The translations under genes were made by a program, and so were the position numbers. A DNA stretch of 64,000 bases from Macrostomum lignano (lineage: Eukaryota). The DNA is taken from the NCBI GenBank assembly GCA_002269645.1, contig NIVC01002467.1:62001-126000 (forward strand). The letters are read 5' to 3'. Under the pieces are notes generated by a model. It was given only the letters and a program-made list of their open reading frames with translations, made no database searches and had not been told where the DNA came from. Numbering within the stretch: position 1 is the stretch's first letter; each line of letters begins with the position of its first letter. This document shows positions 21,801-24,094 of the stretch, piece after piece.

Positions 21801-23253
21801 GTTGCCCAAGTCTTTGGATGGTGAAGTTTTTCACGAATTCCACGATTCACCGTTAGCAGGTCATCTAGGAAGAGACAAAACTTATCAGCGAATTAAAGAA
21901 AGATTTTGGAGAGTAGGATTAGCTACAGCAGTCGAAAAGTACGTCGCCAAGTGCAAATCCTGTTTAGAAAGTAAATCAAGAAAGCGATGCAAGGCACCAG
22001 TGCAGAATTTTCCTATTGTCGAGCCATTCTCACGCCTTCACATTGATTTGATAGGTCCGATCAGTCAGACTAGCAAATCTGGTAACAAATATGTCTTGTC
22101 AGTTATTGACAGCACTAGCAAATTTCCGTTTGCGTTTGCAATTAAAAATCAGAAGGCTAAGACAGTAATTAAAATTCTGCAGGAGCGAGTTTTCGCCGAC
22201 TTTGGAATACCTCAGTGGATTCACACAGATCAGGGAACACAATTTACAGGGAGAGCATTTAGGAAGTTTCTAGACCTCTATGGGATTAGGCACACTAGGA
22301 CAACAAGCTATCATCCACAAAGCAATGGGCTAGTAGAAAATTTAAACAAACAAATTAAGTCAATTCTTACCTGTTTGCTCGAGAAAGAACATGCGAACTG
22401 GGATGTTCTATTGCCCGGTTGTATAACTGCATTGCGCACCAGCACGCATACAGCCACAGGTTTCAGCCCGCATTATCTTGTGTTTGGAAGAGAGGCCCGG
22501 ATGCCGAGTGACAATGTGTTCCAGCAGCCAAAGGCGTTCGCCGATCTGCCTGCTTATGTTCAAGAGCACTTGACTCACCTGCAAGAGGGGCAAGAACTCG
22601 CCAAACAGCGGCTCAAATTAATACAACGTAAGCGTGAGCAGCACTATTCTAACAAACCTAAACAACCAGACTTACCTATAGGGAGCTTAGTTTTCATTAA
22701 CAACCCAGTCATCACACAGACAGAAGCCAACAAGTTCCACAGGAAGAGAAGAGCAGTCTACGAGGTCATAGAACAGTTATCAGAAGTAGTTTACAGGATT
22801 AGATTATTAAACAAAAGTACTAAGGCTAGAAAAGAGGAATTAGTCATGCATAGGGATAATTTACTACCCGTACCAACAGCCGATTACGTTAGTGAGGAAG
22901 AAAAGCCAGAAAGCAGTTGTGCCAGGCGACCGAAACTTCGAGAAAATGTGCCGCTTAATCCGATGTACGAAGCAGCCGACAGTGAGAGTGAACATGAAGA
23001 TGAAGTGCAGTTTGTGCCAGTGCAGAGTCAGAATAATGTTCCAGTATCAGTGCAGGATATGCCAGTGCAGGTTATGCCAGTACAAGAAGATAATCTACCA
23101 GTGCAAAATAATAATGAGCAGCCAGCAATCGAAACTAGACCAGTTAGAGATAGACGGGAGCCGAGTAGATTAGCGATAGACCCAGGCCGGAAGAGCTATG
23201 TGCAAAAGGTAACGGAGTTGTTTAACCCCTACCTGCTCTTCCAGCTCGAATAG
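18797..23253 (+). CDS. pol: Pol polyprotein: aspartic protease, RT, RNase H, integrase; interrupted as sequenced by two single-G insertions
   Basis: Protease [18 protein letters not shown] and YLDD; RNase H DTDAS/YYSRKM/ELLAIV; integrase HHCC (HDSPLAGH...CKSC) with DDE core ([23 protein letters not shown]) and a GPY/F-like tail. The frame break near 20570-20600 is explained by two extra Gs. Confidence 0.93.
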
Positions 23254-23257
23254 CATT

Positions 23258-24094
23258 ATGGCTGACGCCCCGGAGCGGGTATACCCAGTCAAGACAATTT
23301 ACTCGGGAAAGAAAAGAAGAAGAAGTAGCCCCGATGAAAACGAACAGCCACAAGTACGATCGGTACGAGCAAGAGAAGCAACTGAGAAGCCCATAGAAGT
23401 TCAGCAGCGAGAGGAAGTGGACAAGGATAAAGAGGCTGGAGAGTTGGTTGTAGATCTGAATGGAGTAGACCTGGAGGAGGCAACGAGAAGGCATGATGAG
23501 GAGGTGCGGCGAGAACAGGAGGAATTCATGGCAGCTCTACTGGGAGTAGAATTACCTGAACTCGAGGAAGAGCTCAGCCCGAAGAACGACGCCCCAGCAG
23601 AAGTATCGGAACCGCAAGAAATGCCGGAACCTAAGGAAGCGCCGGAGGCGAGGCCGACGACTAATGAGACTCCGGTCGATGTAGCTATCTTCTTCAGGGC
23701 CGACACACCGCAGCCACAAGACCTTGCTGAAAGCAACGAGCAGCCAGGAGCAAGCCCACGAAGTTTCAGGAAGAGTACCAAGGCGCTCAAAAAGTGGCTG
23801 CTAAGAACAGGCAGCACTGGCCACTACGACCCGGCGGTGCCGCCAGAGTGTACTCGATTTCTGGCCCAGGCCACCGCTGAGCAGAAAGTCCAGTGTATGG
23901 AAGTCGCCTGCACGTACGCCCTCCAATATGCTGAGGATAGGGCTAGGGGACCATTGTCGCCCTTCCAAGTAAGTGAGCATCTCCGGGCCATGGTCGAATT
24001 ATTCGACCCAAAGGACAGGCGAACCCCAGCGACTGGCCTCCTTTACCAGTGCTCTCAGCGCGCGCCAACTTGCCGACCGATAGGGCAACTCTAA
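23258..24094 (+). CDS. Third ORF of the gypsy element (278 aa), acidic, with a putative NLS; not env-like
   Basis: ATG lies 4 nt after the pol stop. The ORF is intact and GC-richer than the flanking 3' UTR, has KKRRRSS near the N-terminus, and shows no signal peptide or hydrophobic TM stretch. Confidence 0.75.
   Translation: MADAPERVYPVKTIYSGKKRRRSSPDENEQPQVRSVRAREATEKPIEVQQREEVDKDKEAGELVVDLNGVDLEEATRRHDEEVRREQEEFMAALLGVELPELEEELSPKNDAPAEVSEPQEMPEPKEAPEARPTTNETPVDVAIFFRADTPQPQDLAESNEQPGASPRSFRKSTKALKKWLLRTGSTGHYDPAVPPECTRFLAQATAEQKVQCMEVACTYALQYAEDRARGPLSPFQVSEHLRAMVELFDPKDRRTPATGLLYQCSQRAPTCRPIGQL

What the first reader, a model, noticed from the sequence alone, without database searches (positions are those of the whole stretch)
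23221..24094. Gypsy element encodes a non-env third ORF with its own splice acceptor - a candidate nuclear accessory protein
Seen: an intact 278-aa ORF in the env position with no signal peptide or TM helix. It has an NLS-like KKRRRSS, an acidic helical segment (EEATRRHDEEVRREQEEF), a Pro/Glu-rich spacer and a Cys-containing C-terminal domain. Overlapping the last pol codons is a strong 3' splice site: branch-like TTTAAC, then CCCTACCTGCTCTTCCAG| at 23244, 13 nt before the ATG. A candidate donor AAG|GTAATT lies in the leader at 17544/17545. Established: errantivirus env is made from a spliced subgenomic RNA. Inference: this element uses the same strategy (or SL trans-splicing) for a different, apparently undescribed protein, such as a regulator, RNA-export factor or anti-silencing factor.
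Basis: partly seen in the sequence, partly recalled or inferred. Interest (0 to 1): 0.75.

Follow-up and report, generated by a model that had tools for sequence, protein, structure and literature searches.

The report
Swappable third gene in flatworm retrotransposon
A recently inserted jumping gene of the flatworm Macrostomum carries an intact third gene that is not an envelope gene and has no detected relative; it is likely exchanged between sister elements, likely made from a spliced message, and predicted to be a nuclear helper for the element's own RNA.

Summary
ORF3 (23258-24094, 278 aa) lies behind pol in a very young Ty3/Gypsy element (10011-25391; identical LTRs, 4-bp target duplication) whose pol is 96% identical to a Macrostomum lignano protein. 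It has no signal peptide or membrane helix, and no homologue or specific fold was found. New here: a sister subfamily has an almost identical pol core but a different ORF3. In the 30 bases visible, 9 of 12 differences sit at the 10 third codon positions, all synonymous (p about 1e-4 to 3e-4; one contig). So ORF3 is probably a selected protein on a cassette exchanged by recombination. The acceptor at 23244 is the top or tied-top pyrimidine-tract AG among 740 and fits the host's spliced-leader acceptor motif, but pol's last codons force most of the tract. The 17545 donor is one of four equals. No splice junction appeared in four runs of contigs, none proven to be RNA. A Rev/CERV-like nuclear role is my best guess (about 0.3) and is untested. 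Non-env extra ORFs are known in rotifer, plant, fly and nematode elements, so this is a new variant of a known kind.

The parts
10007..10010 (.). left 4-bp target-site duplication, same as 25392-25395
10011..10088 (+). first 78 bp of the 5' LTR (starts TG), identical to the start of the 3' LTR
   Evidence: 0 of 78 differences
10089..16775 (.). about 6.7-kb satellite-rich insertion nested in the 5' LTR; not part of the element
16776..17409 (+). rest of the 5' LTR (ends CA); no canonical heat-shock element
   Evidence: 0 of 634 differences from the 3' LTR
17412..17428 (+). primer-binding-site-like sequence (tRNA-Leu-like; assignment recalled, not tested)
   Evidence: sequence
17542..17550 (+). 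candidate leader splice donor, one of four equally scoring sites
17835..18845 (+). gag, 336 aa (Retrotrans_gag, zf-CCHC)
18797..18803 (+). slippery heptamer in the gag/pol overlap; likely -1 frameshift site
   Evidence: pol frame open from 18791
18791..23253 (+). pol: protease-RT-RNase H-integrase; broken by a frameshift near 20557-20614 in this copy
23026..23214 (+). pol tail where divergence from the sister subfamily begins (14 aa changes and a 3-aa indel in about 63 codons)
23221..23244 (+). candidate 3' splice site inside the last pol codons; matches the host spliced-leader acceptor motif [T/C]TNCAG
23258..24094 (+). ORF3, 278 aa: basic patch 18-22, acidic helix 72-94, disordered linker, helical C-terminal domain about 167-277 with 5 Cys
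24095..24668 (+). U-rich, poorly structured 3' region with 8 copies of a short motif at 24378-24551; candidate cis-element (inferred)
24669..24681 (+). polypurine-tract-like sequence
   Evidence: sequence
24682..25391 (+). 3' LTR, TG...CA

Best explanation
ORF3 is an intact, soluble, non-envelope third reading frame of a young Macrostomum Ty3/Gypsy element; it is likely a selected accessory protein, likely translated from a subgenomic RNA spliced at 23244, and predicted to enter the nucleus and help the element's unspliced RNA get out, as Rev and CERV do. Steps: (1) shown: ORF, no membrane segment, element anatomy. (2) Inferred, about 0.85: protein-coding under purifying selection. (3) Inferred, about 0.75: the pol tail, ORF3 and 3' region form a cassette that exists in at least two versions on one gag-pol chassis, exchanged by recombination. 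(4) Inferred, about 0.6: expression by splicing at 23244, from a leader donor or from the host spliced leader; the leader's terminal AUG would open only a three-codon frame that ends at the pol stop, 4 nt before the ORF3 ATG, so ORF3 needs its own ATG by leaky scanning or re-initiation. (5) Inferred, about 0.3: a Rev-like role. An element with a working acceptor must export RNA that still holds it; ORF3 has a basic patch, one stable helix and Leu-rich export-like motifs; the repeated 3' motif would be its binding site and travel with it.
For: Stop-free 278 codons, p 1.5e-5, with first/second-position base bias like gag and pol. No gaps in 5 of the 6 listed contig pieces that closely match ORF3 in four runs; the sixth runs 550 nt into the 3' region and has one gap of unseen position (table 8, 32 of 749 pieces shown). 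Sister subfamily: pol protein P0068 differs from the window at 2 of the first 720 residues of the RNase H-integrase part, then at 14 plus a 3-aa indel in the tail, then 0 of the last 12. In the 30 visible letters 12 differ; 9 are at the 10 third positions and synonymous, 3 of 10 codons change residue (read by eye; hypergeometric 1.3e-4, 3.0e-4 without the first site). Acceptor rank; best pyrimidine tract of 19 [T/C]TNCAG sites; host motif and 30% trans-spliced genes (PMC8629364). Precedent: CERV, nuclear, KRKK signal, Cys loop, from a spliced and SL1-trans-spliced RNA (PMC10309623, PMC3315495).
Against: No splice joint among 8 listed, and three listed contigs cross 23244 unspliced; but the runs are only guessed to be RNA. 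Given the pol peptide, synonymous codons reach this pyrimidine count and end in CAG with p about 0.10, so the tract may be a by-product. Codon-usage score does not single out the ORF3 frame (0.010 against 0.008 for another frame). The selection signal rests on 30 bases of one contig. No ORF3 protein is in the collection although three pol proteins of this family are: weak evidence against an abundant separately annotated mRNA. Residues 41-160 carry net charge -23, unlike a typical RNA-binding adaptor. The export-like motifs come from a loose pattern (5 matches at 3 places). The 3' region folds worse than shuffles (z +2.3), so there is no RRE-like structure. No sequence hit to CERV.
Confidence: 0.32

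Rival explanations
1. ORF3 is a real nuclear accessory protein but works against host silencing (piRNA or chromatin factors) or as a transcription activator. Two very different versions on one chassis would reflect host conflict.
For: Acidic low-complexity middle and basic patch; two diverged versions on a near-identical pol; nuclear accessory ORFs of unknown role exist in plant elements and Drosophila MDG1 sORF1.
Against: The visible divergence is mostly synonymous, not adaptive; no likeness to a known suppressor was found.
Confidence: 0.22
2. ORF3 is coding but not spliced. It is made in small amounts by stop-restart 4 nt after the pol stop or from an internal start, and acts in the particle or integration complex (nuclear entry, tethering, chaperone).
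For: 4-nt spacing of pol stop and ATG; tract largely forced by pol codons (p about 0.10); unspliced contigs across 23244 and no joint.
Against: The site is top or tied-top of 740 AGs in 12 of 14 scorings; pol is itself a rare frameshift product (inference), so coupled output would be very low.
Confidence: 0.18
3. ORF3 is a self-limiting or interference factor: a product of a subgenomic RNA that restrains the element or its sister subfamily (like Ty1 p22; recalled).
For: Two versions in one species; a small helical C-terminal domain.
Against: No similarity to this element's gag or pol by BLASTP at E <= 1 among 80 proteins.
Confidence: 0.1
4. ORF3 is a captured host exon or neutral stuffer, open only because the insertion is very young and the region is GC- and purine-rich.
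For: LTRs are identical, so there has been no time to decay; codon-usage test is neutral; host exons in this window are also GC-rich and low-complexity.
Against: No M. lignano host protein matches although that species' proteins are in the collection; a sister version shows a strong third-position excess; no introns.
Confidence: 0.12
5. ORF3 is a degenerate or atypical envelope or cell-to-cell transmission factor.
For: Position between pol and 3' LTR with an acceptor in front, as for env.
Against: No hydrophobic segment (max 0.51), no furin-like motif, one possible N-glycosylation motif; outside the sORF2 criteria.
Confidence: 0.04

Closest known systems
CERV of C. elegans Cer1 (PMC10309623, PMC3315495; passages read)
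   Same: Ty3/Gypsy element in a host with spliced-leader trans-splicing; extra non-env protein with a basic nuclear signal, export-like motif and cysteines; CERV comes from a spliced RNA found with and without SL1.
   Different: CERV is 517 aa from five exons, three in the gag frame, with a tight Cys loop and a G-protein-like domain. ORF3 is one 278-aa exon with its own ATG, spread Cys and a helical domain; no sequence hit; splicing and function unshown.
Non-env ORF3s of bdelloid rotifer LTR elements (PMC5408684; passages read)
   Same: Family-specific third ORFs behind pol, gained, lost and shared as modules.
   Different: Those are GDSL esterases, DEDDy exonucleases, coiled-coil or membrane proteins; ORF3 matches no Pfam family at E <= 1 and has no membrane segment.
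Errantivirus env
   Same: Position behind pol and an acceptor-like site at the pol end (env splicing: established knowledge).
   Different: No signal peptide, furin-like site or membrane anchor.
Drosophila MDG1-group sORF1 and sORF2 (bioRxiv 2025.03.14.642691; passages read) and plant additional ORFs (PMC7264820; passages read)
   Same: Accessory ORFs kept by selection; sORF1 and Grande GENE23 are nuclear with unknown role.
   Different: sORFs lie upstream of gag and are about 70-110 aa; sORF2 is a membrane protein; the nuclear plant ORFs are antisense.
M. lignano Ty3/Mdg4 families (PMC12801592; parts 1-3 of 6 of the text and supplement 1 read)
   Same: Same host; the family's pol is annotated as Mlig004203.
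   Different: The parts read do not mention a third ORF; this LTR has no canonical heat-shock element. I could not place it among the 137 families.

Membership tests
Ty3/Gypsy LTR retrotransposon | LTRs with TG...CA ends, short target duplication, PBS and PPT | tested here: met
Ty3/Gypsy LTR retrotransposon | gag with CCHC knuckle; pol order protease-RT-RNase H-integrase | tested here: met
   (protease match is weak, E 0.027)
Gmr1/Osvaldo, Mag, CsRN1 or Mdg3/micropia cluster | position in an RT tree with reference elements | not tested
   no reference set was fetched; non-Macrostomum integrase hits are 27-38% identical
Errantivirus-type env | signal peptide and C-terminal membrane anchor | tested here: not met
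   max 19-residue hydropathy 0.51; hydropathy only, no dedicated predictor
Errantivirus-type env | furin-type cleavage motif | tested here: not met
   0 matches to R-x-[KR]-R
Errantivirus-type env | homology to a viral fusion glycoprotein | tested here: inconclusive
   no Pfam, phmmer or viral fold match; models are low-confidence
sORF2/FAST-like transmission proteins | 60-210 aa, one membrane helix, MGxxxS/T start | tested here: not met
   278 aa, no membrane helix, no Gly at position 2
Rotifer-type enzymatic ORF3 (GDSL, DEDDy) | GDSL or DEDDy domain | tested here: inconclusive
   no Pfam match; single-sequence models are helical only
CERV / Rev-like export factor | made from a spliced subgenomic RNA | tested here: inconclusive
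   acceptor-like site present; 0 of 8 joints fit; runs not proven RNA
CERV / Rev-like export factor | basic nuclear-signal motif K-[KR]-x-[KR] | tested here: met
   residues 18-21; motif only
CERV / Rev-like export factor | sequence or fold homology to CERV, clustered Cys loop | tested here: inconclusive
   no hit; Cys at 198, 213, 218, 265, 272; best fold Z 7.7, rmsd 3.1, 80 aligned, a designed helical protein
CERV / Rev-like export factor | required for export of unspliced element RNA | not testable with these tools
   needs experiment
M. lignano SL-trans-spliced transcript | [T/C]TNCAG acceptor motif | tested here: met
   (19 such hexamers in the element, this one with the best tract)
M. 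lignano SL-trans-spliced transcript | leader-bearing reads at the acceptor | tested here: inconclusive
   none among 24 of 110 loose ends shown
Heat-inducible HSE-bearing M. lignano LTR families | canonical heat-shock element in the LTR | tested here: not met
   0 matches to the paper's pattern in three LTR copies

The most novel reading that the evidence does not exclude
A flatworm retrotransposon runs its genome like a host operon: it uses the host spliced leader to cut a third gene out of its own RNA, and that gene encodes a new, independently evolved Rev-like factor that comes as interchangeable protein-plus-RNA-element cassettes on one gag-pol chassis.
Probability: 0.15. Interest if true: 0.8.

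Novelty: new variant of a known kind. Interest (0 to 1): 0.52.

Why it matters
How simple LTR retrotransposons export unspliced RNA and evade silencing is known in few animals; CERV is the clear case of an element-encoded factor. An unrelated factor in a flatworm would show that complex-retrovirus-like regulation arose repeatedly. Two natural versions on one chassis in a model animal with transgenesis and RNAi make the question testable. If ORF3 only proves to be a conserved orphan of unknown role, it adds one more kind to the known list of additional ORFs.

Tried and rejected
Homologues of ORF3: 0 of 1431 and 0 of 4086 candidates at near and longer lengths (shorter lengths not searched with this tool); 0 among 1.84 billion representatives; Pfam 0, PHROGs one chance-level hit at E 0.14; Atlas no usable hit twice; metagenome and viral contigs none. 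With the integrase alignment: none in metagenomes, one 23% match in viral contigs that holds no ORF3 match. PDB sequence hits to repeat propellers (best E 4.3e-8) rejected: 0 single stretches pass, the score is summed over repeats. Folds: single-sequence models only (mean pLDDT 54.9 and 59.9); no Z of 8 or more among 48,161 chains, no Foldseek E <= 0.001; this neither names nor excludes a fold. No whole genome is held, so no copy count or full dN/dS. No RNA holder on record was listed. Lower contig depth over ORF3 than over pol in three runs was not used; the tool says depth cannot rank genes. A gag-ORF3 fusion needs a phase-2 gag donor; only weak ones exist (7, 6, 6 of 9). Structured RNA at the frameshift site or 3' region: not found. 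Heat-shock family: rejected; three window motifs and five gene ids found 0 times in that paper's five supplements, weak because long cells are cut and aligned sequences may be split. Not in print as far as searched: nine full-text searches gave no description of a Macrostomum third ORF. The 2020 classification paper cited in PMC12801592 and repeat databases were not seen and may note it.

Full report
Element. The ORF sits in a complete Ty3/Gypsy insertion from 10011 to 25391, with TG...CA ends and a 4-bp target duplication. The two LTRs are identical over the 78 and 634 bases compared, so the insertion is very young. A 6.7-kb satellite-rich stretch has since split the 5' LTR. Gag (17835-18845) has Retrotrans_gag and a CCHC knuckle; pol has protease, RT, RNase H and integrase in that order and overlaps gag in the -1 frame with a slippery heptamer at 18797. 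Pol is broken by a frameshift near 20.56-20.61 kb in this copy; annotated sister proteins are unbroken. The integrase half is 96% identical to Macrostomum lignano Mlig004203g3, then 59% and 54% to two other M. lignano families and 38% or less to the other 63 of 66 hits. The host is therefore M. lignano or a very close relative.

The ORF. 23258-24094 encodes 278 aa. At its base composition a stop-free run of this length has p 1.5e-5 in one frame, and its first and second codon positions are biased like gag and pol; a codon-usage score did not separate the frame (0.010, -0.084, 0.008). There is no hydrophobic segment (max 0.51) and no furin-like motif, so it is not an env. Single-sequence AlphaFold2 gives one confident helix (72-94), disorder elsewhere in the first 165 residues, and a low-confidence helical domain at about 167-277 (pTM 0.52 alone). 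No sequence relative was found, and fold searches gave only generic helical bundles (best Z 7.3 and 7.7).

Is it selected? Intactness says little in so young a copy. Four public runs laid as contigs show near-identical ORF3 pieces with 1-5 differences each; 5 of the 6 listed have no gap, and the sixth, which runs far into the 3' region, has one (32 of 749 pieces shown; I could not see whether the differences make stops). The informative record is number 30 of run X6. Of the first 30 of these, 12 differ from the window; 9 are at the 10 third codon positions of the ORF3 frame and are synonymous, and 3 of 10 codons change residue (read by eye). The chance of that excess is 1.3e-4, or 3.0e-4 leaving out the first site, which differs by construction. 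This is one contig and 30 bases, but the frame was fixed beforehand.

Cassette. The annotated pol P0068 differs from the window at 2 of the first 720 residues of the RNase H-integrase part, then at 14 residues plus a 3-aa indel between 23026 and 23214, and at none of the last 12 (P0001 and P0067 have the same tail, with 6 and 7 differences upstream). The 9 gap letters of record 30 match that indel in size, so it likely belongs to that subfamily. Other contigs leave or rejoin the window at 24611 (tables 5 and 7). I infer that one gag-pol chassis carries at least two versions of tail, ORF3 and 3' region, exchanged by recombination. The right-hand boundary is uncertain.

Splicing. The AG at 23244 has the best pyrimidine tract among YAG sites with no upstream AG and is unbeaten among 740 AGs in 12 of 14 scorings; only 12 of the 740 lie within 100 nt upstream of the ATG. 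It matches [T/C]TNCAG, the top motif at M. lignano trans-splice acceptors; about 30% of that species' genes are trans-spliced (PMC8629364, passages). Against: the pol peptide fixes 15 of the 17 pyrimidines, and codon choice reaches the observed state with p about 0.10. That peptide is, however, unchanged in a tail that is otherwise about 22% diverged, which fits a constraint at this place. The branch-like motif is common (123 of 387) and the donor is one of four equals. The flatworm leader ends in AUG; joined here it would open three codons and stop 4 nt before the ORF3 ATG, so the leader AUG would not start ORF3. Upstream cis donors tend to out-compete the leader (PMC4558846, passage), so cis-splicing is at least as likely as trans-splicing. 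In the data, none of 8 joints is GT..AG or ends at 23245, none of the 24 of 110 loose ends shown lies there, and three listed contigs cross the site unspliced. No run is on record as RNA, so this is inconclusive.

Function. Nothing here tests it. I commit to a Rev/CERV-like role at about 0.3. An element that splices must still export RNA holding the acceptor (established for retroviruses and Cer1). ORF3 has a basic patch, a single stable helix and loose export-like motifs, and it lies next to eight copies of a short motif in the 3' region that could be its site. Against: a strongly acidic middle, an unstructured 3' region and no CERV hit. Anti-silencing or activation (0.22), unspliced low-level expression (0.18), neutral or captured sequence (0.12), self-restriction (0.10) and atypical env (0.04) remain.

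What is known. Non-env extra ORFs occur in rotifer elements (PMC5408684, passages), plant elements (PMC7264820, passages), the Drosophila MDG1 group (bioRxiv 2025.03.14.642691, passages) and Cer1 (PMC10309623 and PMC3315495, passages). The M. lignano LTR survey (PMC12801592; parts 1-3 of 6, supplement 1, two supplement searches) does not mention a third ORF in what I read, and this LTR lacks its heat-shock element. PMC12582326 was seen as passages. Other papers were seen only as search listings. Rev, Rex and Ty1 p22 comparisons, the tRNA assignment and the Helitron-type label are recalled.

Verdict. A real, probably selected, orphan third gene on an exchangeable cassette; splicing plausible but unshown; function open. 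New variant of a known kind; interest 0.52.

Noticed in passing
window 387-1096 (+): Solo LTR of the same family, 99.7% identical to the 3' LTR, with TG...CA ends and its own 4-bp target duplication.
   Followed up: yes
window 10089-16775: About 6.7-kb insertion inside the 5' LTR: telomere-like hexamer repeats near 10320-10380, a long 22-23-bp satellite, and a microsatellite just before its end; the ends look Helitron/Helentron-like (recalled, not tested). It cuts 78 bp off the promoter region.
   Followed up: partly
window 17290-17301 and 25272-25283: A second primer-binding-site-like sequence lies inside each LTR, about 120 nt before its end (short match seen).
   Followed up: no
window 24378-24551: Eight copies of a 6-nt motif in the U-rich 3' region, against one elsewhere in the element; two joints in run X1 skip part or all of this stretch.
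   Followed up: partly
window 50661-55594 (-): Exons of a host COG4 gene (COG4_N E 5e-27, COG4_m E 4e-16), separated by satellite-rich introns.
   Followed up: partly
window 1190-2395 (+): 402-codon open frame just behind the solo LTR, no Pfam match; probably a host exon.
   Followed up: no
P0002, P0003: Two more distant M. lignano families (59% and 54% in integrase) also end pol in long acidic tails; whether they carry a third ORF could not be seen.
   Followed up: no
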